31,589 bases of DNA from a virus (lineage: Duplodnaviria > Heunggongvirae > Uroviricota > Caudoviricetes), in IMG/VR virus record IMGVR_UViG_3300045988_127337, positions 1 to 31,589 of that record; one strand, written 5' to 3'. This document shows, in pieces, positions 2,548 through 29,587 of the stretch (its first letter is position 1; every line of letters starts with the position of its first letter). The notes beneath the pieces were generated by a model that was given only the letters and a program-made list of their open reading frames with translations, searched no databases and was not told where the DNA came from. The translations under genes were made by a program, and so were the position numbers.

Positions 2548-2591
2548 TTCACATCTCCTCAAGTTATCAGTTACTTGTTGATGGGGACCAG

Positions 2592-2624
2592 ATTGTTAAA
2601 GAGCTAAGCGTCCTGTAGGGCGCT
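2592..2624 (-). promoter_or_regulatory. Nut-like antitermination element: hairpin followed by rrn-type boxA
   Basis: Minus-strand RNA reads hairpin (2624..2607) then GCUCUUUAACAAU (2604..2592), a 13-nt match to the E. coli rrn boxA consensus as recalled. Lies in the leader between the PL-like promoter and the 68-aa gene. Confidence 0.5.
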
Positions 2625-2630
2625 TTTTTG
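2607..2630 (+). terminator. Intrinsic terminator (plus strand)
   Basis: Stem agcgtcc / gggcgct with loop tgta, followed by a T6 run at 2624..2629. Confidence 0.6.
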
Positions 2631-2714
2631 TTGCTAACGAATCATCCTGGACTTCATATGCCCCAGGCGGCTACTTCGTGGGCGTCCTGCCTGTTTGTTG
2701 TTTCTCTTGGGTAC

Positions 2715-2742
2715 ATTATGTATCTCATAGGTACATTGTCAA
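2715..2742 (-). promoter_or_regulatory. PL-like early-left promoter with embedded operator
   Basis: Minus strand -35 TTGACA (2742..2737), 16-bp spacer, -10 CATAAT (2720..2715). Spacer contains palindrome ATGTAC-N7-aTACAT (2718..2736), matching the OR operator architecture. Confidence 0.6.
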
Positions 2743-2746
2743 GTAT

Positions 2747-2767
2747 AAAAAAACCTGCCGAAGCAGG
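2747..2767 (-). terminator. Intrinsic terminator downstream of the repressor gene
   Basis: Minus-strand hairpin cctgc-ttcg-gcagg followed by a U7 run, 15 bp past the repressor stop codon. Confidence 0.7.
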
Positions 2768-2781
2768 TTCATAAACATTGA

Positions 2782-3456
2782 TTAGGCTTTGATTTTGTAT
2801 CTTCTTGGTTTTCCTGAGAAAATCACAGTTCCAATTATAGAGCAATTACCGTTGATCTTAATGTAAGGCTCAGGCCAGTTTGGGTTTAACGCTTTGAGAT
2901 AACGCTGTGTCCCATCTTCTATCAACCTTTTGAAGGTGGTTTCACCTGTATCGTGCATCAATGCAATAACGTCGTCACCGTGGCAGGCAGGTACTTCAGG
3001 ATCGACAAAAATCATGTCTCCCGGGCGGTACTCGTCAATCATTGAATCACCTATCACCCGCAAGATATAAGTCATTTCCCCACAGGGTACAGGGCAGGGA
3101 TACGTTTCTGCTGTGCTCAAATCAACCTCAGAATATCCAACTTCTTTCCATGCTCCGGCCTGTACCCATGATATGACAGGGACTAATGTGATTTGTTTAT
3201 TAGTGATTGAAACATCAGGTTTTTTTGTGATGTTCGTTGTCTGGTGTTCTTGATCGAGCCATCCGACAGGCAGGTCGAAACATTTTTCGATGTGTCGTGC
3301 CATGCTGTCACCGATATTTTTAGTAGCACCATCTCCCATAAACCTGCTGGTCTGGGTTGGCTCGCGATCAATCATAGTGGCAAAGGAAGAATTCCCGCCA
3401 ACACCATCTCTCAGTTTTCTGGCGTTAGACCGCCGGATGTCATGGATTGTTTTCAT
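2782..3456 (-). CDS. CI-type prophage repressor, N-terminal HTH plus C-terminal S24 (LexA-like) peptidase domain
   Basis: 224 aa. C-terminal region aligns by eye with P22 C2 (LNPNWPEPYIKINGNCSIIGTVI vs LNPQYPMIEINGNCKIIGVVV). Contains GDSM catalytic serine motif and an Ala-Gly cleavage site (VQAGAW). No Shine-Dalgarno, consistent with a leaderless PRM-type transcript. Confidence 0.85.
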   Translation of the reverse strand: MKTIHDIRRSNARKLRDGVGGNSSFATMIDREPTQTSRFMGDGATKNIGDSMARHIEKCFDLPVGWLDQEHQTTNITKKPDVSITNKQITLVPVISWVQAGAWKEVGYSEVDLSTAETYPCPVPCGEMTYILRVIGDSMIDEYRPGDMIFVDPEVPACHGDDVIALMHDTGETTFKRLIEDGTQRYLKALNPNWPEPYIKINGNCSIIGTVIFSGKPRRYKIKA

Positions 3457-10754: not shown

Positions 10755-11852
10755 TTATGCAGCCTCGTCAGTGGCTCGCTTTCTCTGTATGCTTGATAGT
10801 GACTCTAACATCTTGTTGATTACAAACAAAATATGCTCAATTGAGGAGCAACGATCTATGATTGCATCATAAAGGTGACTGTTCGGTTTATCAATCATAG
10901 CCCGTTTACCTGGCAGTATTAATTCTACAGGGAAAACTTGAGAAGCTGAATCAGTCAGATCCCAAATTTTACCGAGTTTGTATTTCGTTAGTATGGGACT
11001 TGCCTCTTCGCCCCCATGATGGTAGCTGTCTGAGCGCAAGCAGCTTTCACCCGGACGGAGTTTTAATGAGCTGGTGTTTCCATCTGATGTAAGAAATGAC
11101 ATCTGCGAGATTCTACCATCTGTTTGCTCGTACATTTCTTGTACTAATCCAAAGAGGTCAATGGGCGCAGGTAAAGTCAAACCAGTAGTAGTTCTAATAA
11201 ACTGATCAAGCAAAAATTGCTGTCGTTCCGACTCTGAACGAGGCATCACAGATAAATCAACAGTGAGCGCAAGTAAATGCAACTCGGGTAGAATCATTAT
11301 TGTATTAAAGCACTGTGTAACTTCACGTGTTTTACATTTGATTTCACCACCATTGGAGCGAAGAGCTAGCCCAGCATCGCTTAAATGGGTCGCGTCGAGT
11401 TCAATAGTTTCTGTGTAGTATGCTTTCGACGTAAGAATCGTTGTTTCTAAAGAAACTTTGTTTACGACAGAAAATGTAGTTTCTAAAAAATGAAGATCTG
11501 TATCAGCTGCAAGCAACACATCTTTAGGCAAAGGATATGGATAGCTTTCGCAAAAAACGGATTCGTCTCTTTCTAGGGCATTTATATTCTCCCGTAGAGT
11601 TTGCACTTCTTCCGGTTCTAACTTATACAGCTTAACTAAACGGGTCCCACTCAATAGTAAATTTTGCCATACTTCACCTATATGAGTACTTACAGCTTCC
11701 TGATCTACATCTTCTGTTGCTTGGAGCCTCGCGATAAATGGGTCAAGGCCAACTGATGTGACACCAAGTGGTTCCCCCACAATTTTTTTTGTGAGCTTCC
11801 ATCCAACACGTTCGGTGATATCTCTTAAAAGGTTGATCGTTTGCTCATTCAT
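10755..11852 (-). CDS. Hypothetical protein, 365 aa; first gene of the antisense accessory operon
   Basis: ATG at 11852 (MNEQTINLL); the listed start at 11894 is a TTG. AT-rich. No Walker, HEXXH or other catalytic motif seen by eye. Confidence 0.6.
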   Translation of the reverse strand: MNEQTINLLRDITERVGWKLTKKIVGEPLGVTSVGLDPFIARLQATEDVDQEAVSTHIGEVWQNLLLSGTRLVKLYKLEPEEVQTLRENINALERDESVFCESYPYPLPKDVLLAADTDLHFLETTFSVVNKVSLETTILTSKAYYTETIELDATHLSDAGLALRSNGGEIKCKTREVTQCFNTIMILPELHLLALTVDLSVMPRSESERQQFLLDQFIRTTTGLTLPAPIDLFGLVQEMYEQTDGRISQMSFLTSDGNTSSLKLRPGESCLRSDSYHHGGEEASPILTKYKLGKIWDLTDSASQVFPVELILPGKRAMIDKPNSHLYDAIIDRCSSIEHILFVINKMLESLSSIQRKRATDEAA

Positions 11853-12000
11853 AAGAAACCCTTTTTTGTATTTTTTTGTACTTTTTGAAGGCAATTTAGA
11901 TAGTCCTTAACATACTAAATTAACGAACATATTTCATTAGCACGGTCCGCAAAAAGTGATGTATCGTGTTAAGAGTGGTTACTTCGCCACACAACTTAAA

Positions 12001-12170: not shown

Positions 12171-12497
12171 ATGCCTCATAACCCAAATACCTGGCTGGAG
12201 TTGGTCCAGAGCTGGTGGCGTGGAGACACACCGCTGGGCGCAGTGATTATGTCGATTGTTATGGCTGGTTTACGTATCGCCTATTTTGGCGGTGGTGGCG
12301 GCTGGAAGCGAAAAACACTCGAAATTCTACTCTGTGGCGCTCTGACGCTGACTTTTGCATCCGCTCTTGAGTATGTCGGATGGCCTAAATCACTATCTGT
12401 TGCCATTGGTGGTGGGGTGGGGCTGATCGGTGTCGATGCTATTCGTGGGGCTGCAATGCGAGTAATCGGTAACAAATTTGGTGGCTCTAAGGAGTAA
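12171..12497 (+). CDS. Holin
   Basis: 108 aa, hydrophobic membrane segments, directly upstream of the endolysin. GAGGTG ribosome-binding site. Confidence 0.75.
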   Translation: MPHNPNTWLELVQSWWRGDTPLGAVIMSIVMAGLRIAYFGGGGGWKRKTLEILLCGALTLTFASALEYVGWPKSLSVAIGGGVGLIGVDAIRGAAMRVIGNKFGGSKE

Positions 12498-21818: not shown

Positions 21819-21989
21819 ATGTTTGTGAAACCTGTTAAAGGGCGGTCAGTTCCTGACCCTGCCCGCGGCGACCTTTTGCCCGCCGAAGGGCGAAATGTTG
21901 ACGAGAACAACTACTGGCTGCGCCGTGAAGCAGCGGGTGATATCCGGCGCGTGAATAAAAAGGTGAATACCGATGACGATAAGCTTTAA
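21819..21989 (+). CDS. Small conserved phage protein, 56 aa (DUF2635-like); absent from the supplied ORF track
   Basis: ATG at 21819; MFVKPVKGRSVPDPARGDLLPAEGRNVDENNYWLRREAAGDIRRVNKKVNTDDDKL. Fills the gap before the sheath gene and overlaps its start by 17 nt. Confidence 0.45.
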   Translation: MFVKPVKGRSVPDPARGDLLPAEGRNVDENNYWLRREAAGDIRRVNKKVNTDDDKL

Positions 21990-23469
21990 CACCATTCCGT
22001 CGAATACGCTGGTTCCGTTGTTTTATGCGGAAATGGATAACCAGGCGGCGAATACTGCACAGGACAGCGGAGCATCGCTGCTGATTGGTCATGCCAATAA
22101 CGGTGCAGAGATTGTTGCCAACAGTCTGGTACTGATGCCGTCGGCAGACTATGCACGCCAGATTTGTGGTGCGGGAAGTCAGCTGGCGCGTATGGTCGAG
22201 GCTTATCGCCAGACTGACCCGTTTGGCGAGCTGTATGTGATTGCCGTTCCTGAATCCACAGGCGCGGCGGCAACAGTTACGCTGACGGTGACCGGGGCAG
22301 CAACCGAAACCGGCACGGTGAATGTTTATGTGGGACGTACCCGCGTGCAGGCACCGGTGACCAACGGCGATAACGTCGCGACGATTGCCAGCAGTATCAA
22401 AGATGCCATCAATGCCGTTCCGGCCCTGCCGTTTACGGCCTCATCTTCGGCTGGTGTGGTTACATTGACAGCTCGCCATAAGGGGCTTTGCGGGAATGAA
22501 ATTCCTGTCAGCCTCAATTACTACGGCTTCGGTGGGGGCGAAGTGCTGCCAGCGGGCGTACAGATTGCCGTGGCGACGGGGACCGCCGGAACGGGCGCTC
22601 CGGTTCTCACCGGCGCGGTGGCTGCAATGGCGGATGAGCCGTTTGATTATATCGGTCTGCCGTTCAACGACACGGCCTCTGTTAACACGCTGGTGACCGA
22701 GATGAGCGATACCAGCGGTCGCTGGAGCTATGCGCGTCAGCTGTATGGTCATGTGTATACGGCAAAGGCCGGCACACTGTCAGAACTGGTGAACGCAGGT
22801 GACCAGTTTAACCAGCAGCACATCACCCTGGCGGGGTACGAAAAAGAGACCCAGACGCCTGCCGACGAGCTGGCAGCCAGCCGTACCGCCCGCGCAGCGG
22901 TGTTTATCCGTAACGATCCGGCACGTCCCACGCAGACCGGTGAGATGGTGGGTATGCTGCCTGCGCCGAAGGGGAAACGGTTCACGATGACCGAACAACA
23001 GACCCTGCTGTCTCATGGCGTGGCAACGGCGTATGTCGAAAGCGGGGTACTGCGCATTCAGCGTGATGTCACCACGTACAGGAAAAACGCTTACGGGGTT
23101 GCGGATAACAGCTACCTCGACAGTGAGACACTGCATACCAGCGCGTATGTACTGCGCAAACTGAAATCCGTCATTACCAGTAAGTACGGGCGTCACAAGC
23201 TTGCCAGTGACGGTACCCGCTTTGGTCCCGGTCAGGCGATTGTCACCCCGGCGGTGATCAAAGGGGAACTGCTGGCAACCTACCGTCAGCTTGAGCGTGC
23301 GGGGATCGTGGAAAACTACGAACTGTTTAAGCAGTACCTGGTTGTGGAGCGTGATGCCAGCGATCCGAACCGCCTGAACACGCTGTTCCCGCCTGACTAT
23401 GTTAACCAGTTGCGTGTCTTTGCCGTGGTTAACCAGTTCCGTCTTCAGTATTCAGAGGAGTCTGCATAA
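21973..23469 (+). CDS. Tail sheath protein (Mu gpL-like)
   Basis: 498 aa, directly followed by a tube-sized gene; contractile-tail gene order. Confidence 0.85.
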   Translation: MTISFNTIPSNTLVPLFYAEMDNQAANTAQDSGASLLIGHANNGAEIVANSLVLMPSADYARQICGAGSQLARMVEAYRQTDPFGELYVIAVPESTGAAATVTLTVTGAATETGTVNVYVGRTRVQAPVTNGDNVATIASSIKDAINAVPALPFTASSSAGVVTLTARHKGLCGNEIPVSLNYYGFGGGEVLPAGVQIAVATGTAGTGAPVLTGAVAAMADEPFDYIGLPFNDTASVNTLVTEMSDTSGRWSYARQLYGHVYTAKAGTLSELVNAGDQFNQQHITLAGYEKETQTPADELAASRTARAAVFIRNDPARPTQTGEMVGMLPAPKGKRFTMTEQQTLLSHGVATAYVESGVLRIQRDVTTYRKNAYGVADNSYLDSETLHTSAYVLRKLKSVITSKYGRHKLASDGTRFGPGQAIVTPAVIKGELLATYRQLERAGIVENYELFKQYLVVERDASDPNRLNTLFPPDYVNQLRVFAVVNQFRLQYSEESA

Positions 23470-23825
23470 TGGCCCGTATCGGGGGAACCTGTTATTTCAA
23501 AATTGACGGTCAGCAGCTATCGCTGACCGGCGGCATTGAGGTGCCCATGAACAGGACGGTCAATGATGACATCATCGGCCTGGACGGTTCAGTGGACCGC
23601 AAGGAAACTCACCGTGCGCCCTATGTCAAAGGGACCTTCAAGGTGCCGAAGAATTTTCCGGTGAGCAAAATCACCTCGTCTGATGAGATGACCATCACTG
23701 CCGAGCTGGCGAACGGTCAGGTCTATGTACTGTCGTCTGCCTGGCTGCACGGCGAAGCGAACCATAATGCCGAAGAAGGCACGGTTGATCTTGAGTTCCA
23801 CGGTGAAGAAGGGGATTACCAGTGA
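23469..23825 (+). CDS. Tail tube protein (Mu gpM-like)
   Basis: 118 aa immediately after the sheath gene (TAATG overlap). Confidence 0.75.
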   Translation: MARIGGTCYFKIDGQQLSLTGGIEVPMNRTVNDDIIGLDGSVDRKETHRAPYVKGTFKVPKNFPVSKITSSDEMTITAELANGQVYVLSSAWLHGEANHNAEEGTVDLEFHGEEGDYQ

Positions 23826-24145
23826 TTGAGCTTGTACTTAAAAAACCGATCATCGCCCACAAAGAAACACTGCATGTGCTGGAAATACGTGAGCCTACGT
23901 ATGACGAGATTGAGGCGCTGGGGTTCCCTTTCTCTGTTTCACCTGATGGTGGTATGAAAATGGACAGTCAGGTAGCGCTGAAATATATCCCGCTTCTGGC
24001 CGGGATCCCGCGCTCGTCTGCAGCGCAGATGACGAAGCTGGATATTTTCAAGGCAGGCATGATTGTAATGCGTTTTTTTACCGGCTTGGAGACGGAAGAG
24101 ACCTCCGGAAGCGATTCTACAATGTCGCGTGGTTCTGGAAATTAA
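23822..24145 (+). CDS. Tail assembly chaperone (short form)
   Basis: 107 aa between the tube and tape measure genes. GTG start overlapping the tube stop. Confidence 0.65.
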   Translation: MIELVLKKPIIAHKETLHVLEIREPTYDEIEALGFPFSVSPDGGMKMDSQVALKYIPLLAGIPRSSAAQMTKLDIFKAGMIVMRFFTGLETEETSGSDSTMSRGSGN

Positions 24146-24237
24146 ACCCCCTTGAACTTCGCCGGACGGCTATTTCCCACTTTGCTGATCTGGAGGCAGA
24201 GGCCGTCCGTATAAATGAGGAGATGAAGCATGGCTGA
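24073..24237 (+). CDS. Tail chaperone -1 frameshift extension (long form, C-terminal part)
   Basis: Slippery T TTT TTT at 24073..24079 in the zero frame. The -1 frame is open for 54 codons and stops at TGA 24235..24237, overlapping the tape measure start. Confidence 0.45.
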   Translation, partial: FFYRLGDGRDLRKRFYNVAWFWKLNPLELRRTAISHFADLEAEAVRINEEMKHG

Positions 24238-26137
24238 TAATTTTCAGCTGAAAGCCATCATCACCGCCGTTGACAGGCTGTCCGGCCCGCTTAAAGGTAT
24301 GCAGCGTCAGCTTAAGGGGTTTCAGAAAGAAGTCTCCAGCCTTGCTCTGGGCGCTGCCGGGGCGGGTACTGCAATAATGGGGGCACTGGCACTCCCTGTA
24401 AAATCAGCCATCACCCTTGAATCGAAGATGGCTGATGTCCGCAAAGTGGTGGACGGTCTGGATACGCCGGATGCGTTTAAGGCCATGACGGAGCAGGTAC
24501 GCGCTTTGTCTACTGAGCTTCCCATGTCTGCAGACGGGATCGCGGAAATTGTGGCGGCTGGCGGTCAGGCCGGGATTGCACGTGATGAACTGATGCAGTT
24601 TGCCACTGATGCGGTGAAGATGGGCGTGGCCTTTGATACCACGGCTGAAGAGTCCGGGCAGATGATGGCCCAGTGGCGTACTGCGTTTAATATGACGCAG
24701 GATGAAGTGGCCGGGCTGGCTGACAAAATCAACTACCTTGGTAATACCGGCCCGGCGAATGCGAAGAAAATCTCCGATATTGTTACGCGTATTGGTCCTT
24801 TAGGTGGTGTTGCAGGTGTGGCTTCCGGCGAAATCGCGGCAATGGGGGCAACCATTGCCGGGATGGGCGTGGAGTCAGAAATTGCCGCCACAGGGATCAA
24901 GAACTTCATGCTTTCCCTGACCGCGGGAAATTCCGCGACAAAATCGCAGAAACAGGCATTACGTTTTCTGCGGATCAATCCGAAGAAATTAGCTGCTGAT
25001 ATGCAGAAAGATGCCCGGGGAACCATGCTGTCTGTACTGGATGCGATGGCTAAAGTGCCCAAAGAAAAACAGGCAGCTGTGCTGAATGCCCTGTTCGGGA
25101 AAGAGTCTCTGGGCGCGATAGCACCTCTGCTGACTAACCTTGATTTGTTGCGTACCAACTTCAGGCGGGTTGCGGATTCCCAGCAGTATGGCAGTTCGAT
25201 GCAGAAGGAATATGCTTCGAGGGCAGCGACGACGGAAAACCAGCTTTTACTTCTGCAAAATCAAATTGATGCCATTTCTTCCACGCTGGGGGAAACGTTT
25301 CTTCCTGAGGTTAATGATGGTCTTGAAGCGGTAAAACCGCTCCTTGAGGAAGTGAGAACGTTTGTCCGTGAAAACCCGGAGCTCGTTAAGACCATTGCTA
25401 AAATCGGTCTGGCCTTACTGACGGTGGGAGCCGCTGCAGGCTCTTTGTCCAGAATTATGAAAGTTCTCGGCGGTGTGATGAATATGACGCCTGCTAAGGG
25501 GCTGATTGCTCTTCTGGTTGGTGGCGCTTACCTCATTATTGATAACTGGGAAACCGTAGGTCCTGTCATAAAAAAAGTCTGGCACGTGGTGGATGAAACG
25601 GCGCAGGCGATGGGGGGATGGGAAACTGTTCTGAAAGCGATTGCCCTGTTTATGGCAACCAAATGGGTTGCTGACGTTACCAAATCCATTACCGCAGTGA
25701 CCAGAGAGATGCGTACGCTGGGGAAGGTATCGGCAGAAACGGGATTGATGGGGAAAGGCCGCGGCTTTATCGGGAAGGCCGGGGTATATGGTTTTCTGGG
25801 AACCCTGATGTATGAGCCGGTTAAAGATACTCTGGAAAGTGTTGTTCCTGAAGATACGGTTAACTGGCTGGATAATAAAGGGCTGTTTCTGGCTTCAGAC
25901 TGGACGCCTTTTTTTGATCGTAAAGAGTACGAGCAGTATCAGGCCAGCCTGAGTCAGTACAAACCCAATGTTCCGCTGTTGAATCCATCTTCTTCCATGA
26001 CACAGCACAGCGAGCTGAAAGTCACGTTCGAGAATGCTCCGCCAGGTATGAAGATAATTGATGTACCGGGCAAAGCCGATCCCCTGATGAAAATCACGCA
26101 CGATGTGGGGTATTCCCCTTTTCGTTTTCCACGATAA
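24230..26137 (+). CDS. Tail tape measure protein
   Basis: 635 aa, Ala/Gly-rich with hydrophobic segments. GAGGAG ribosome-binding site. Position after the chaperone. Confidence 0.85.
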   Translation: MADNFQLKAIITAVDRLSGPLKGMQRQLKGFQKEVSSLALGAAGAGTAIMGALALPVKSAITLESKMADVRKVVDGLDTPDAFKAMTEQVRALSTELPMSADGIAEIVAAGGQAGIARDELMQFATDAVKMGVAFDTTAEESGQMMAQWRTAFNMTQDEVAGLADKINYLGNTGPANAKKISDIVTRIGPLGGVAGVASGEIAAMGATIAGMGVESEIAATGIKNFMLSLTAGNSATKSQKQALRFLRINPKKLAADMQKDARGTMLSVLDAMAKVPKEKQAAVLNALFGKESLGAIAPLLTNLDLLRTNFRRVADSQQYGSSMQKEYASRAATTENQLLLLQNQIDAISSTLGETFLPEVNDGLEAVKPLLEEVRTFVRENPELVKTIAKIGLALLTVGAAAGSLSRIMKVLGGVMNMTPAKGLIALLVGGAYLIIDNWETVGPVIKKVWHVVDETAQAMGGWETVLKAIALFMATKWVADVTKSITAVTREMRTLGKVSAETGLMGKGRGFIGKAGVYGFLGTLMYEPVKDTLESVVPEDTVNWLDNKGLFLASDWTPFFDRKEYEQYQASLSQYKPNVPLLNPSSSMTQHSELKVTFENAPPGMKIIDVPGKADPLMKITHDVGYSPFRFPR

Positions 26138-26161
26138 CGCAGTCCTTTTTGAGGTCAGTCT

Positions 26162-27538
26162 ATGGATTTATCCTCATTTCCCACCCGACCTTCATTACTT
26201 TCGTCGTCTTCAGGCTGGCGTGACAGACTTCAGGACGCGTCATTTCGCGGCGTGCCGTTTAAGGTTGAAGAAGAAAGTGCGGGAACCGGTCGCCGTGTGG
26301 AAACACATGAATACCCGAACCGCGACAAACCCTATACCGAAGACCTGGGGAAAATCACTTTTCGCCCGTCCATCACGGCTTATGTGGTGGGAGATGACTG
26401 CTTTGACCAGCGCGATCGCCTGATTGACGCGCTGAATAAACCCGGTCCCGGCACGCTTGTCCATCCGACATACGGTGAGCTGAAAGTCTGTGTTGACGGA
26501 GAAGTTCGGGTCAGCACATCGAAGAGTGAAGGGCGTATTGTCCGCTTTGACCTGAAGTTTGTCGAAGCGGGAGAACTCTCTTACCCCACTTCAGGTGCGG
26601 CGACGGCGCAGACGCTGATGTCATCCTGTTCTGCACTGGATGACTGCATCAGTGACAGCTTCAGAGGTTTCAGTATCGATGGCGTGGCGGATTTCGTGCA
26701 GAACGACGTCGTTGGTAATGTCAGCACAATGCTTGGGTATGTTTCTGATGCGATGAAAGTGGTGGATTCTGCCGTATCGGATGCTGCCAGGCTGTTGCAG
26801 GGGGATATCTCGGTACTTCTGCCGCCACCATCGTCAGGCAAAAATCTCGTTGAGCAGGTGCAGAAAATGTGGCGTACCGGGAAACGCCTTTATGGTAACG
26901 CCAGCGACCTGGTCACCATGATCAAAACGCTTTCCGGTGTCAGCCTCGGCAGCGATCTGCAACCGCGCGGCGTCTGGAAAACGGACAGTAAAACCACCGC
27001 CACGGCTACGCAGCAGCGTAATGTGGTTGCCAGCACCCTTCGTACGACCGCAATCAGTGAAGCGGCGTATGCCGTCACCCGATTGCCTGCGCCAACAACT
27101 TCCGCGGTGATGCAGAATTCCGCAGTGGGGCAGGCAACAACACCAGCGCAGAGCACTGGCTGGCCTTCCGTCACGCATCCGGCACTGAACAATGCACCGG
27201 CGGTGAAAAACACGGTTGACCTGCCAACGTGGGAAGAGCTGACTGACATTCGCGACACACTGAATACGGCAATTGATAAGGAGTTGTCCCGTACAACCAG
27301 TGATGCGCTGTTTCTGGCACTGCGCCGGGTGAAAGCAGATCTGAATGCGGATATCAACACGCGCCTTGAACAGTCTGCACGGATCATTCAGCGCACGCCG
27401 GATGAGGTCTTACCCGCGCTGGTGCTGGCGGCGACCTGGTTTGATAACGCGGCGCGTGACGCGGACATTATCCGGCGTAATGCCATTACGCATCCCGGCT
27501 TTGTGCCGGTGATCCCTCTGAAGGTGCCAGTGCAATGA
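26162..27538 (+). CDS. DNA circularization protein (Mu gpN-like)
   Basis: N-terminal motif ASFRGVPF...HEYP..D.PY.EDLG matches the recalled Mu N family signature. Confidence 0.75.
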   Translation: MDLSSFPTRPSLLSSSSGWRDRLQDASFRGVPFKVEEESAGTGRRVETHEYPNRDKPYTEDLGKITFRPSITAYVVGDDCFDQRDRLIDALNKPGPGTLVHPTYGELKVCVDGEVRVSTSKSEGRIVRFDLKFVEAGELSYPTSGAATAQTLMSSCSALDDCISDSFRGFSIDGVADFVQNDVVGNVSTMLGYVSDAMKVVDSAVSDAARLLQGDISVLLPPPSSGKNLVEQVQKMWRTGKRLYGNASDLVTMIKTLSGVSLGSDLQPRGVWKTDSKTTATATQQRNVVASTLRTTAISEAAYAVTRLPAPTTSAVMQNSAVGQATTPAQSTGWPSVTHPALNNAPAVKNTVDLPTWEELTDIRDTLNTAIDKELSRTTSDALFLALRRVKADLNADINTRLEQSARIIQRTPDEVLPALVLAATWFDNAARDADIIRRNAITHPGFVPVIPLKVPVQ

Positions 27539-28614
27539 ACGATAACGTCACGCTACGGGTAAATGGCCGGGAGTGGAATGGCTGGACATCGGTGCGCATC
27601 GGTGCCGGTATTGAACGGCTGGCGCGGGATTTCAGCGTGGAGATCACCCGCCAGTGGCCGGGAGATGAGGGTATCACCACGCTTCAGCCGCGCATTAAAA
27701 ATGGTTCAAAAGTGGAAGTGCTGATTGGTGATGAGCTGGTGATCACCGGCTGGGTGGAGGCGACCCCCGTTCGTTACGATGCCCGTTCGGTCAGCACCGG
27801 TATTGCCGGACGTAGTCTGACTGCTGACCTGATTGACTGTGCAGCCGAACCGACACAGTTTAACGGACGATCGCTGGTACAGATTGCGCAGGCGCTTGCT
27901 GCGCCTTTCGGCATTGAGGTGGTGAACAGCGATGCGCCGTCGGGTGTTATTCCGGATGTCCAGCCTGATCACGGTGAAACGGTGATCGAGGTGATCAACA
28001 AAATACTCGGTCAGCAGCAGGCGCTGGCTTATGACGACCCGCACGGCAGGCTGGTGATTGGTGGTATTGGCTCAACGCGGGCACATACCGCGCTGGTACT
28101 TGGGGAAAACATCCTTTCCTGTGATACGGAGAAGAGTATCCGGGAGCGGTTTTCAGTTTACCAGGTGGCGGGGCAGCGTGCCGGAAACGACGATGATTTC
28201 GGTGAGGCCACCACCACCGCGCTGCGGGCCCGCACAGAGGACGCATTTATTGCCCGTTACCGTCCGATGTATATCAGGCAGACAGGGCAGGCTACGGGGG
28301 CAGGCTGTATTGCCCGTGCGGACTTTGAAGCCCGACAACGGGCGGCGCGGACGGATGAAACCACCTATGTGGTGCAGGGCTGGCGACAGGGTAACGGTAC
28401 GCTGTGGCAGCCCAACCAGCGGGTGATTGTCTTTGATCCGGTCTGTGGTTTCGACAATACCGAACTGCTTGTTTCGGAAGTCACGTTTACTCAGGACCAG
28501 AACGGCACCCTGACGGAAATCCGTGTCGGCCCGCCTGATGCTTATCTGCCTGAACCCGAAGCCCCCGGCGCGCGGAAAAAGAAAAAAGCCAGAGTACAGG
28601 AGGACCCGTTCTGA
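27535..28614 (+). CDS. Baseplate hub protein (Mu gpP-like)
   Basis: 359 aa in the baseplate gene order. Confidence 0.7.
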   Translation: MNDNVTLRVNGREWNGWTSVRIGAGIERLARDFSVEITRQWPGDEGITTLQPRIKNGSKVEVLIGDELVITGWVEATPVRYDARSVSTGIAGRSLTADLIDCAAEPTQFNGRSLVQIAQALAAPFGIEVVNSDAPSGVIPDVQPDHGETVIEVINKILGQQQALAYDDPHGRLVIGGIGSTRAHTALVLGENILSCDTEKSIRERFSVYQVAGQRAGNDDDFGEATTTALRARTEDAFIARYRPMYIRQTGQATGAGCIARADFEARQRAARTDETTYVVQGWRQGNGTLWQPNQRVIVFDPVCGFDNTELLVSEVTFTQDQNGTLTEIRVGPPDAYLPEPEAPGARKKKKARVQEDPF

Positions 28615-29162
28615 TGAGGACGATTGAAGCCATGCAGCGACAACTCCTCGGCCTGATTGGGCGGGCCGTGGTGAAAAGCATCAGTGCCGCCACGAAATGT
28701 CAGACCGTGGATGTGTCCCTGATTGCCGGTGAACCCAAAGCCGGGGTTGAACATCTTGAACCCTACGGTTTTACCGCAAGGGCAAACAGCGGTGCGGAAG
28801 CGGTGGTGTTGTTTCCGGATGGAGACCGTTCTCATGCGGTGGTTGTTACGGTGTCGGACCGTCGCTACCGCCTGAAAGGGCTGCAGACTGGGGAGGTGGC
28901 TGTCTATGACGATCAGGGGCAGTCCGTGACGCTGACCCGGGAGGGGATCGTGGTGGACGGTGCAGGTAAAACGATCACGTTTCGCAATGCGCCTAAGGCA
29001 CGTTTTGAAATGGACCTGGAAGTGACAGGACAGGTGAAAGACCTGTGCGACTCCAGCGGCACCACCATGTCAGCGATGCGGCTTGCCTATAACGGGCATC
29101 GTCACAGAGAGAACGGTCAGGGCAGTAACACCGACAAACCTGATAAAGCGATGGAGGCATGA
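28614..29162 (+). CDS. Baseplate assembly protein V / spike (Mu gp45-like)
   Basis: 182 aa; position and size. Confidence 0.7.
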   Translation: MRTIEAMQRQLLGLIGRAVVKSISAATKCQTVDVSLIAGEPKAGVEHLEPYGFTARANSGAEAVVLFPDGDRSHAVVVTVSDRRYRLKGLQTGEVAVYDDQGQSVTLTREGIVVDGAGKTITFRNAPKARFEMDLEVTGQVKDLCDSSGTTMSAMRLAYNGHRHRENGQGSNTDKPDKAMEA

Positions 29163-29587
29163 TGGAACTGTGGCTGACGGTGAACGGTAAACGCACCTGC
29201 GCCAGCGCACCGCTGGATCCGCTGACCCGCGCCGTGGTGATTTCCCTGTTTACCTGGCGGCGGGCGGAGCCTGATGACAACGCCGGCGTCCCGATGGGAT
29301 GGTGGGGGGATACCTGGCCTGCGGTACAGAATGACCGTTACGGCTCCCGACTGTGGCTGCTTCAGCGCAGCAAACTGACCAATCAGCTGGTGCAGACGGT
29401 AAGGGGGTATATCCGCGAATGCCTGCAATGGATGATTGATGATGGCGTGGTGTCCCGTATTGATCTGGATATCCGCCGCACCGGGATTAATGAACTGGGT
29501 AACAGTATCACTCTCTGGCGTCGTGACGGACCGGTAATGATTTCTTTTGATGATCTGTGGAGTGCGATAACGCATGGCGGACAGTGA
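29159..29587 (+). CDS. Baseplate protein (Mu gp46 / GPW-like)
   Basis: 142 aa; position and size. Confidence 0.65.
   Translation: MMELWLTVNGKRTCASAPLDPLTRAVVISLFTWRRAEPDDNAGVPMGWWGDTWPAVQNDRYGSRLWLLQRSKLTNQLVQTVRGYIRECLQWMIDDGVVSRIDLDIRRTGINELGNSITLWRRDGPVMISFDDLWSAITHGGQ

What the first reader, a model, noticed from the sequence alone, without database searches (positions are those of the whole stretch)
24073..24237. Probable programmed -1 ribosomal frameshift in the tail assembly chaperone
The chaperone gene contains a slippery heptamer T TTT TTT (24073..24079) in the zero frame. The -1 frame from that point is open for 54 codons and ends at a TGA overlapping the tape measure start. This mirrors the conserved frameshift that yields short and long chaperone forms upstream of tape measure genes (lambda G/GT, P2 E/E').
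Basis: partly seen in the sequence, partly recalled or inferred. Interest (0 to 1): 0.45.

Follow-up and report, generated by a model that had tools for sequence, protein, structure and literature searches.

The report
Unannotated frameshift in phage tail chaperone
The small gene between the tail tube and tape measure genes of this E. coli prophage very probably makes a short and a long protein through the well-known programmed -1 ribosomal frameshift of phage tail assembly chaperones; this is an ordinary, P2 E/E'-type case that database annotations leave out.

Summary
The T7 run at 24073..24079 lies in X_XXY_YYZ register in the 107-codon chaperone gene (23822..24145). It sits at the last two codons (Phe85-Phe86) of the gene's Pfam Phage_TAC_7 domain. 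From 24079 the -1 frame is open for 52 codons. Its TGA (24235..24237) overlaps the tape measure ATG (24230).

Within this window alone the pattern is not statistically unusual. The comparative evidence is decisive:
- All 112 related loci examined keep T_TTT_TT[T/C] at the same codons and a 50-55 codon -1 ORF ending at the tape measure start. They include chaperones only 31-41% identical.
- The 0-frame tail varies from 3 to 21 residues.
- Substitutions in the supposedly non-coding gap fall on third positions of the -1 frame.
- The -1 ORF has no usable start codon of its own.

A profile of the fused proteins aligns collinearly with P2 E+E' (hhalign 97.8%, E 7.5e-13), slip site on slip site. No stimulatory RNA structure was found.

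No record examined annotates the long form (138 aa, 15.9 kDa). Verdict: a real, conserved frameshift, a new (unannotated) member of a known kind, and of low interest.

The parts
23469..23825 (+). Tail tube gene (118 aa). Its TGA overlaps the chaperone GTG by 4 nt. Gives the upstream context.
   Evidence: Pfam Tail_tube PF10618, E 2.4e-33; ORF list.
23822..24145 (+). Tail assembly chaperone, short form from standard 0-frame translation (107 aa, 11.7 kDa, pI 5.3).
   Evidence: Pfam Phage_TAC_7 PF10109, 32.1 bits against a cut-off of 25, residues 5-86. phrog_166 'tail protein', E 1e-25. RefSeq calls it 'phage tail assembly protein'.
24073..24079 (+). Slippery heptamer T_TTT_TTT. The P-site and A-site codons are Phe85 and Phe86, the last residues of the PF10109 domain.
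   Evidence: Conserved as T_TTT_TT[T/C] in all 112 related loci. The wobble bases needed for the motif are T in 16 of 16 non-redundant sequences.
24079..24237 (+). -1 frame extension of 52 codons plus TGA (YRLGDGRDLRKRFYNVAWFWKLNPLELRRTAISHFADLEAEAVRINEEMKHG; 6.3 kDa, pI 9.4). The long form is 23822..24079 joined to 24079..24237 (138 aa, 15.9 kDa).
   Evidence: No start codon in this frame before codon +48. Invariant or near-invariant residues across 16 sequences: A103, W106, P110, A128, R130, I131. Third-position substitution bias. phrog_32181, E 4.5e-6.
24080..24145 (+). 0-frame tail after the slip site (21 residues, acidic and Ser/Gly/Thr-rich, TGLETEETSGSDSTMSRGSGN, then TAA). Poorly conserved.
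   Evidence: Its length varies from 3 to 21 residues among homologues, whereas the -1 ORF keeps 50-55 codons.
24217..24222 (+). GAGGAG Shine-Dalgarno-like sequence 7 nt upstream of the tape measure ATG, embedded in the conserved NEEMKHG end of the -1 ORF.
   Evidence: Read directly from the sequence; invariant in the alignment.
24230..26137 (+). Tape measure protein gene (635 aa). Its ATG overlaps the end of the -1 ORF by 8 nt (ATGGCTGA).
   Evidence: Pfam PhageMin_Tail PF10145, E 2.2e-42; ORF list.

Best explanation
Gene 23822..24145 encodes the tail assembly chaperone of an SfIV/phiP27/ST64B-type temperate myovirus with a Mu-like contractile tail.

Most ribosomes read straight through and make the 107-aa short form. 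A minority slip back one base while the P and A sites hold tRNA-Phe on UUU-UUU within U_UUU_UUU (24073..24079). Both tRNAs re-pair with UUU in the -1 frame. Translation then continues from UAC (24079) for 52 codons to the UGA at 24235..24237, which overlaps the tape measure start.

The result is a 138-aa long form. It shares the 86-residue N-terminal chaperone domain and carries a basic 52-residue C-terminal extension.

By analogy with lambda G/GT and P2 E/E+E', the shared N domain would coat the tape measure protein. The extension of the rarer long form would recruit the tail tube protein, so that the tube polymerises around the tape measure. Neither form is expected in the finished virion.

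Shown here: the sequence anatomy, its conservation, coding constraint on the -1 ORF, the lack of an independent start, and homology to P2 E+E'. Inferred: that the shift happens on the ribosome, its efficiency, and the division of labour between the two proteins.
For: 1. Anatomy: the heptamer is in register, the -1 ORF has 52 new codons, and there is an 8-nt overlap with the tape measure ATG.

2. Position: the gene lies between the tail tube gene (PF10618) and the tape measure gene (PF10145). It matches PF10109 'tail assembly chaperone proteins E, or 41 or 14' above the gathering score, and the match ends exactly at the slip codons.

3. Conservation:
- Seven phage records keep T_TTT_TT[T/C] at the equivalent codon plus a 52-53 codon -1 ORF. 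They include SfV, Pantoea AH07, Edwardsiella EPP-1 and Yersinia YeP1, with chaperones about 40% identical.
- The same holds in 25 of 25 species-representative genome loci, out to a Methylococcales MAG. Those loci were found with a peptide pattern about 50 residues upstream of the slip site.
- It also holds in 80 of 80 viral contigs.
- The wobble base of the preceding codon (CGT, AAT or GGT) and of Phe85 is T in 16 of 16 non-redundant sequences. Elsewhere in these genes TTT makes up only 39% of Phe codons and T 28% of third positions.

4. Coding constraint. In the stretch annotated as intergenic, differences between the window and phiP27 fall 2/1/15 on codon positions 1/2/3 of the -1 frame (binomial p = 2e-5); other pairs behave alike. 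The extension has invariant A103, P110, A128 and R130 and near-invariant W106 and I131 across 16 sequences. The 0-frame tail varies from 3 to 21 residues.

5. No independent initiation. The -1 frame of the window has no ATG, GTG or TTG from 44 codons upstream of the slip site to codon +48. Only 6 of the 25 non-redundant sequences checked have a start codon upstream of the conserved motif.

6. Homology to the proven case. hhalign of 16 fused sequences against 7 P2-type E+E' fusions gives probability 97.8% and E 7.5e-13 over 123 collinear columns, with G-F-F aligned to G-F-L at the slip site. The RefSeq P2 record annotates E+E' as a -1 frameshift product and an essential tail protein. P2 has the same 8-nt overlap with gene T.

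7. Motif competence. U_UUU_UUU and U_UUU_UUC are among the more shift-prone heptamers measured in E. coli: 0.33% and 0.12% alone, 10.2% and 7.6% with the IS3 pseudoknot. UUUUUUU in this register is strongly avoided in E. coli genes, z = -15.6 (PMC4066793, Table S3).

8. A homologous E gene in a Mannheimia phage carries the non-homopolymeric G_GGA_AAG at its equivalent place, which points to a ribosomal mechanism in the wider family.
Against: - No protein-level evidence exists for this phage group. None of the records examined (RefSeq PGAP, SfIV, phiP27, ST64B, SfV, AH07, EPP-1, YeP1, vB_EcoM-720R4) annotates a slippage product.
- No stimulatory element was found. Folding energies downstream are no better than shuffles (z from -0.8 to +0.4). 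The alignment fold has a positive covariation term (+0.96) and only 2 compensatory pairs. By eye there is no SD-like sequence upstream.
- Without a stimulator the motif gave only about 0.1-0.3% frameshifting in reporter assays (PMC4066793). The real efficiency is therefore unknown and could be low, or could depend on something not recognised here.
- The extension alone is not recognisably a Pfam PF06528 (P2 GpE) domain: no hit at E <= 10, and extension-only hhalign gives P = 0.009, probability 4.6%.
- Within this window alone the pattern is not statistically exceptional.
Confidence: 0.88

Rival explanations
1. The long form is made by transcriptional slippage. RNA polymerase adds one extra U while copying the T7 tract, producing a minority of mRNAs with U8 in which the N domain and the -1 ORF are in one frame. 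The ribosome then reads these normally.
For: The site in the window is a homopolymer of 7 T. Homopolymeric A or T runs are known to cause RNA polymerase slippage, and UUUUUUU is avoided in all three frames of E. coli genes, which Sharma et al. attribute partly to this (PMC4066793). No ribosomal stimulator was found, and the motif alone is a weak ribosomal shifter. The outcome (two proteins with a shared N terminus) would be the same, so the conservation data do not separate the two mechanisms.
Against: Most diverged relatives have only T6 followed by C, and P2-type genes have T6 followed by G. From general knowledge, such runs are short for efficient elongation-phase slippage, which is usually seen at 8-9 or more. 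No lineage has lengthened the run. The run always sits in X_XXY_YYZ register, and Z is restricted to T or C, the two values that make H_HH.U_UU.Y an efficient ribosomal motif in E. coli. A homologous E gene uses the heteropolymeric G_GGA_AAG. The P2 case is recorded as a translational frameshift.
Confidence: 0.07
2. The -1 ORF is a separate small gene translated from its own start, or by re-initiation after the chaperone stop. It would then not be a fusion with the chaperone N domain.
For: Some phage annotations call such a small ORF on its own: phrog_32181 matches the peptide at E 4.5e-6, and P2-like records list 'P2 GpE family' mini-ORFs. Six of the 25 non-redundant sequences checked have an ATG, GTG or TTG at codon -7 in the -1 frame.
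Against: In the window the -1 frame has no start codon from 44 codons upstream of the slip site to codon +48, four codons before its stop. Several relatives (L015, L017, L032, L037) have none at all. The conserved motif (codons +13 to +45) therefore cannot be reached without a frame change. The heptamer-forming wobble bases are conserved in 16 of 16 sequences, which an independent gene would not require.
Confidence: 0.02
3. There is no recoding at all. The heptamer is just a Phe-Phe dipeptide, and the open -1 frame is a chance or non-coding feature, conserved for example because it holds the tape measure ribosome-binding site.
For: Within the window, 6% of positions have at least 52 open -1 codons, and T7 runs are not over-represented. 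No database record annotates a long form.
Against: A 50-55 codon open -1 frame persists in 112 of 112 loci, down to 31% protein identity. Substitutions show a third-position bias in the -1 frame (p between 2e-5 and 2e-3). The -1 peptide carries invariant residues. The fused product is collinear with P2 E+E'.
Confidence: 0.03

Closest known systems
Bacteriophage P2 E / E+E' (programmed -1 frameshift at T_TTT_TTG in the FETUD tail operon; Christie et al. 2002, cited through PMC3091744 and PMC5009743; RefSeq NC_001895)
   Same: - Gene between the tail tube gene and the tape measure gene of a contractile tail.
- N domain in Pfam PF10109.
- Slip site at codons 84-85 (P2) against 85-86 (here), at the ...G/R-F-F/L end of the N domain.
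- T-run heptamer, and a -1 extension of 52-57 residues.
- The extension's stop overlaps the tape measure ATG by 8 nt.
- No downstream hairpin in either.
- Full-length profiles align collinearly (97.8%, E 7.5e-13).
   Different: - Sequence identity is only about 13-16%, and pairwise BLASTP finds nothing.
- The extension does not match Pfam PF06528, and extension-only hhalign is weak.
- Z is T or C here instead of G, so both slipping tRNAs are tRNA-Phe.
- The surrounding tail genes are Mu-like rather than P2-like.
- The 0-frame tail here is 21 residues against 6 in P2.
Bacteriophage lambda G / GT (G_GGA_AAG, -1; Levin et al. 1993; Xu, Hendrix and Duda 2004, 2013, 2014, as reviewed in PMC5009743)
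   Same: The logic is the same. Two chaperone forms share one start. [quoted passage not shown] The arrangement is conserved by position across long-tailed phages.
   Different: Lambda has a non-contractile tail, no detectable sequence similarity, and a different heptamer. Its T domain is much larger. The lambda mechanism and its 30:1 ratio are experimentally established; here nothing has been measured.
Bacteriophage Mu gp41 (tail assembly chaperone; a -2 frameshift according to Xu et al. 2004, as cited in PMC2628397 and PMC5009743)
   Same: The tail module type is the same: sheath, Tail_tube PF10618, chaperone, tape measure, DNA-circulation protein, gp44-like hub. Depositors label the neighbours Mup39, Mup40 and Mup42. 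The Pfam family name covers '41'. In Mu an ORF in another frame also fills the gap before the tape measure gene.
   Different: Mu needs a -2 (or +1) change of frame on a G-rich site, and no in-register XXXYYYZ heptamer exists in gp41. The Mu fused sequence is not significantly similar to this family (hhalign probability 1.9%). Mu gp41 is longer (145 aa).
U_UUU_UUC / U_UUU_UUU frameshift motifs of IS elements and reporter constructs in E. coli (Sharma et al. 2014, PMC4066793)
   Same: The same heptamers, shown to support -1 tandem slippage by E. coli ribosomes.
   Different: In those systems high efficiency needs a pseudoknot or an SD-like stimulator. None was detected here. Their genome-wide screen of E. 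coli gene clusters did not list this prophage gene.

Membership tests
Frameshifted tail assembly chaperone pair (lambda G/GT-type arrangement, Xu et al. 2004) | Gene lies directly between the major tail or tube gene and the tape measure gene. | tested here: met
   Tube 23469..23825 (PF10618), chaperone 23822..24145, tape measure 24230..26137 (PF10145).
Frameshifted tail assembly chaperone pair (lambda G/GT-type arrangement, Xu et al. 2004) | [quoted passage not shown] | tested here: met
   T_TTT_TTT at 24073..24079, codons 85-86 of 107.
Frameshifted tail assembly chaperone pair (lambda G/GT-type arrangement, Xu et al. 2004) | Overlapping ORF in the shifted frame, with no start of its own, that fills the space up to the tape measure gene. 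| tested here: met
   52 codons ending at the TGA at 24235..24237, 8 nt into the tape measure gene. No start codon before codon +48.
Frameshifted tail assembly chaperone pair (lambda G/GT-type arrangement, Xu et al. 2004) | Slip site and second ORF conserved in relatives, with coding constraint on the second ORF. | tested here: met
   112 of 112 loci. Third-position bias, p = 2e-5. Invariant residues in the extension.
Frameshifted tail assembly chaperone pair (lambda G/GT-type arrangement, Xu et al. 2004) | Two protein products in a fixed ratio, both needed for tail assembly and absent from virions. | not testable with these tools
   Needs western blot or mass spectrometry and genetics.
P2 E / E+E' family | N-terminal domain is Pfam PF10109 (Phage_TAC_7), above the gathering score. 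| tested here: met
   32.1 bits against a cut-off of 25, residues 5-86.
P2 E / E+E' family | Full-length fused product homologous and collinear with P2 E+E', slip site aligned with slip site. | tested here: met
   hhalign A3 against A7: probability 97.8%, E 7.5e-13, 123 columns, GFF aligned to GFL. With a single P2 sequence: 79%, E 1.6e-5.
P2 E / E+E' family | C-terminal extension is Pfam PF06528 (Phage_P2_GpE). | tested here: not met
   No PF06528 hit at E <= 10 for three extensions of this group, while P2 E' scores 78.7 bits. Extension-only hhalign: P = 0.009, probability 4.6%, in the same register. At best a very remote relative.
P2 E / E+E' family | T-run heptamer (T_TTT_TTN) giving a -1 shift, and an extension stop that overlaps the tape measure start. 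| tested here: met
   Window T_TTT_TTT and ATGGCTGA; P2 T_TTT_TTG and ATGAGTAA.
Mu gp41 type (-2 frameshift) | Significant sequence similarity to Mu gp41 or its fused product. | tested here: not met
   hhalign probability 1.9%, E 0.026.
Mu gp41 type (-2 frameshift) | Second ORF lies in the +1/-2 frame and is reached on a G-rich site. | tested here: not met
   Here the conserved ORF is in the -1 frame. The +1 frame is open for only 5-44 codons and is not conserved. For Mu.

The most novel reading that the evidence does not exclude
The long form may depend on something other than plain tandem tRNA slippage. The bare U_UUU_UUU or U_UUU_UUC motif gives only about 0.1-0.3% frameshifting in E. coli reporters, and no hairpin, pseudoknot or SD-like stimulator is detectable or conserved here. 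The needed amount of long form might therefore come from an unrecognised stimulator, such as a nascent-peptide or codon-context effect of the conserved ...G/R-F-F end of the N domain, or from a mix of ribosomal and transcriptional slippage on the T tract. That would make this very common prophage gene a convenient model for stimulator-independent frameshifting.
Probability: 0.12. Interest if true: 0.35.

Novelty: new member of a known kind. Interest (0 to 1): 0.15.

Why it matters
The main consequence is for annotation. This prophage type matched 1096 of 5426 complete E. coli genomes (236 with a match covering most of the 1-kb query). It also includes named Shigella, Salmonella, Yersinia, Pantoea and Edwardsiella phages. 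Every record examined lists only the short chaperone and leaves an 85-140 nt 'intergenic gap' that in fact encodes a conserved 52-residue domain.

Adding the joined CDS (23822..24079 joined to 24079..24237) would recover a probably essential tail assembly protein. It also shows that a Mu-like tail module can carry the P2-type -1 T-run shift, although Mu itself uses -2. It does not change what is known about how phage tails are built.

Tried and rejected
- Downstream stimulatory RNA. Single-sequence folds of seven homologous regions have z-scores from -0.8 to +0.4. The RNAalifold consensus of five window-type sequences has a positive covariation term and almost no compensatory pairs. Rejected as unsupported.
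- Direct assignment of the extension to Pfam GpE and NCBIfam: no hits.
- Pairwise BLASTP against P2 E+E': nothing. Only profile-profile comparison works.
- Similarity to the Mu gp41 -2 fusion: not significant.
- Sequence search of solved structures with the family profile: only chance-level hits.
It was not pursued.
- Xu et al. 2004, Christie et al. 2002 and the SfV genome paper are not in the held library. I therefore could not check whether SfV, ST64B or phiP27 were already listed there. The SfIV genome paper does not mention a frameshift. The E. coli-wide heptamer screen does not list this cluster.
- Full-length 'fused' proteins in the protein database looked at first like annotated frameshift products. 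They turned out to be indel alleles.
- In alignment A4, two P2-type fusions carried F instead of L at the slip codon, which was my typing error. Corrected in A7, and the result is unchanged.

Full report
**Observation**

Bases 24073..24079 are seven T. The ORF 23822..24145 (GTG start, 107 aa) reads CGT TTT TTT ACC across the run, so the heptamer is in T_TTT_TTT (X_XXY_YYZ) register with Phe85 and Phe86 as the P-site and A-site codons. Re-reading from 24079 in the -1 frame gives YRLGDGRDLRKRFYNVAWFWKLNPLELRRTAISHFADLEAEAVRINEEMKHG and then TGA at 24235..24237. The next gene starts at ATG 24230, so the two overlap by 8 nt (ATGGCTGA). A GAGGAG lies 7 nt upstream of that ATG.

**Is it more than chance?**

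Not on the window alone. T7 runs are not over-represented (12 found against 7.2 +/- 3.4 expected). Of 40 in-register XXXYYYZ heptamers in 39 long ORFs, 3 are followed by at least 50 open -1 codons. About 6% of all in-frame positions have at least 52 open -1 codons. The case rests on context and comparison.

**Context**

Pfam identifies, in order:
- tail sheath, 21973..23469;
- tail tube, 23469..23825 (PF10618);
- the gene in question (PF10109 Phage_TAC_7, 'tail assembly chaperone proteins E, or 41 or 14'; 32.1 bits against a cut-off of 25);
- tape measure protein, 24230..26137 (PF10145);
- a Mu N-like DNA circulation protein;
- a Mu gp44-like baseplate hub.

The PF10109 match covers residues 5-86, so it ends exactly on the two slip codons.

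The region is 100% identical to Escherichia phage vB_EcoM-720R4 and 99% identical to Shigella phage SfIV. Diverged relatives include phiP27, ST64B, SfV, SfI, SfII, Pantoea AH07, Edwardsiella EPP-1 and Yersinia YeP1-3. Matches occur in 1096 of 5426 complete E. coli genomes, of which 236 hold a match covering most of the 1-kb query. No record examined annotates a joined CDS. All leave a gap of 85-140 nt before the tape measure gene.

**Conservation**

- In seven phage records the equivalent codons carry T_TTT_TTT or T_TTT_TTC. A -1 ORF of 52-53 codons runs to a stop 8-11 nt inside the tape measure gene, even where the chaperone is only about 40% identical.
- I then searched one genome per species, using a peptide pattern taken from residues about 27-36, which is independent of the slip site. 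All 25 confirmed loci have the heptamer in register and a -1 ORF of 50-55 codons ending at the tape measure start. They range from Escherichia, Shigella, Mixta, Edwardsiella, Kosakonia, Citrobacter and Yersinia to a Methylococcales MAG.
- All 80 viral contigs retrieved have T7 and the ORF.
- The 0-frame tail after the slip site varies from 3 to 21 residues and is low-complexity.
- The synonymous positions that create the motif are T in 16 of 16 non-redundant sequences: the wobble of the preceding CGT, AAT or GGT codon, and that of Phe85. Elsewhere in the same genes only 39% of Phe codons are TTT and 28% of third positions are T. These lineages are related, so the naive probability overstates the case, but synonymous sites are saturated at this divergence.

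**Coding constraint**

In the stretch between the annotated chaperone stop and the tape measure ATG, the window and phiP27 differ at 2, 1 and 15 sites in codon positions 1, 2 and 3 of the -1 frame (p = 2e-5). Other pairs give 4/2/13, 4/1/15 and 3/3/17. The extension has invariant A103, P110, A128 and R130 and near-invariant W106 and I131 across 16 sequences. It is therefore at least as conserved as the N domain.

**No independent start**

The -1 frame of the window has no ATG, GTG or TTG from 44 codons upstream of the slip site to codon +48. Several relatives have none at all, and only 6 of the 25 non-redundant sequences checked have one (at codon -7). The conserved peptide can be made only by a change of frame.

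**Relation to known systems**

- *P2.* The RefSeq record annotates E (91 aa) and E+E' (142 aa, '-1 frameshift; essential tail protein'), with T_TTT_TTG at codons 84-85, a 57-residue extension and an 8-nt overlap with gene T. Pairwise BLASTP between the window's fused product and P2 E+E' finds nothing, and the extension does not hit Pfam PF06528. A profile of 16 fused sequences of this group, compared with a profile of 7 P2-type fusions from Burkholderia, Pseudomonas, Klebsiella, Zymomonas, Mannheimia and Aeromonas phages, gives hhalign probability 97.8% and E 7.5e-13. The 123 aligned columns are collinear, and the slip codons align with each other. The extensions alone give only P = 0.009, in the same register. 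The extension's homology to GpE therefore remains unproven, although its size, place and A..(F/W)W..P......A.R pattern are similar.
- *Mu.* Mu needs a -2 shift according to the literature. I could see the ORF in its +1/-2 frame, but Mu's fused sequence is not significantly similar to this group. So this is a Mu-like tail module carrying a P2-type chaperone and slip site.

**Mechanism**

The simplest reading is tandem -1 slippage of two tRNA-Phe on U_UUU_UUU. Sharma et al. (PMC4066793) measured all heptamers in E. coli:

| Heptamer | No stimulator | With IS3 pseudoknot |
|---|---|---|
| UUUUUUU | 0.33% | 10.2% |
| UUUUUUC | 0.12% | 7.6% |
| UUUUUUG | 0.12% | 0.77% |

H_HH.U_UU.Y motifs are among the most efficient, and UUUUUUU in this register is strongly avoided in E. 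coli genes, z = -15.6. The Z base in this family is only T or C, which fits.

I found no stimulator. Folds downstream are no better than shuffles, and the alignment fold shows no covariation. The same absence is reported for P2 and its relatives. The efficiency is therefore unknown. For orientation, lambda gives about 30:1 and P2 two to three times more long form (PMC5009743).

Transcriptional slippage on the T tract cannot be excluded for the T7 variants. It is disfavoured because most relatives have only T6, and because a homologous E gene uses the heteropolymeric G_GGA_AAG.

**Function**

The roles are inferred by analogy only. The short form (11.7 kDa, pI 5.3) and the N domain of the long form (15.9 kDa, pI 8.9) would bind the tape measure protein. 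The basic extension would recruit the tube protein (PMC5009743).

**Database check for prior annotation**

A search of 5.8 billion proteins with the fused sequence returned mainly 107-109-aa short forms named 'phage tail assembly protein'. The few full-length matches are indel alleles:
- a Shigella flexneri allele with one extra G 26 nt downstream of an intact T7, in a prophage remnant cut by IS1 just after the tape measure gene;
- T5 alleles, mostly in assemblies whose neighbouring genes are fragmented.

None is an annotated slippage product. The SfIV genome paper calls the gene a hypothetical protein and does not mention frameshifting. The E. coli-wide heptamer screen lists lambdoid chaperones but not this cluster. 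I could not read Xu et al. 2004, which may already list SfV, ST64B or phiP27.

**Verdict**

It is a further, so far unannotated, member of the well-known family of frameshifted tail assembly chaperones, closest to P2 E/E+E'. Its value lies in annotation rather than in new biology. Interest: 0.15.

Noticed in passing
L126 3001..3429 (Shigella flexneri GCA_903995655.1) and L127; protein P0007: A phiP27-like chaperone allele listed on 661 contigs has one extra G (CCTCCGG to CCTCCGGG) 26 nt downstream of an intact T7 heptamer. This fuses the 0 frame to the -1 ORF in a single 142-aa ORF. The prophage there is cut by IS1 right after the tape measure gene, so it is probably a decaying remnant.
   Followed up: partly
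L129-L133; protein P0001: Alleles 99% identical to the window carry T5 instead of T7, giving an in-frame 137-aa fusion. In four of the five loci the neighbouring sheath, tube or tape measure genes are fragmented, so these are probably homopolymer sequencing errors. Other database 'fusions' (P0008, P0009, P0015, P0021) pass through the +1 frame and look like double indels.
   Followed up: partly
window 12182..12188 (+), in ORF 12171..12497: An in-register C_CCA_AAT heptamer at codon 4 is followed by a 60-codon open -1 frame, the longest such case in the window. Conservation was not checked. The motif is not known as an efficient shifter, and the site is at the very start of the gene.
   Followed up: no
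window 29117..29575 (-): A 152-aa minus-strand ORF carries in-register G_GGA_AAT (56-codon -1 ORF) and C_CCC_CCA. It overlaps plus-strand baseplate-region ORFs (28614..29162, 29159..29587) and is probably not a gene.
   Followed up: no
window 11783..11790 (+): A T8 run (A8 on the minus strand) lies near the 5' end of the minus-strand ORF 10755..11894 (TTG start, 379 aa), and another T7 is at 11871..11877. They may belong to a divergent promoter or regulatory region.
   Followed up: no
window 21973..28614; L011 (Mu) 2553..3140: The tail module is Mu-like: sheath, PF10618 tube, DNA_circ_N, gp44-like hub. Its chaperone and slip site, however, are P2-like (-1 on a T run), whereas Mu gp41 has no in-register heptamer and its conserved second ORF lies in the +1/-2 frame.
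   Followed up: yes
window 24079..24237: The -1 peptide matches phrog_32181 (unknown function, 63 positions, E 4.5e-6). Some phage annotations therefore call this extension as a free-standing small ORF.
   Followed up: no
window 26103..26423 (+) and 26116..26122: At the 3' end of the tape measure gene, an in-register C_CCT_TTT is followed by a 33-codon -1 frame, and a 106-aa ORF (26103..26423) overlaps the start of the DNA-circulation gene. It is probably fortuitous.
   Followed up: no
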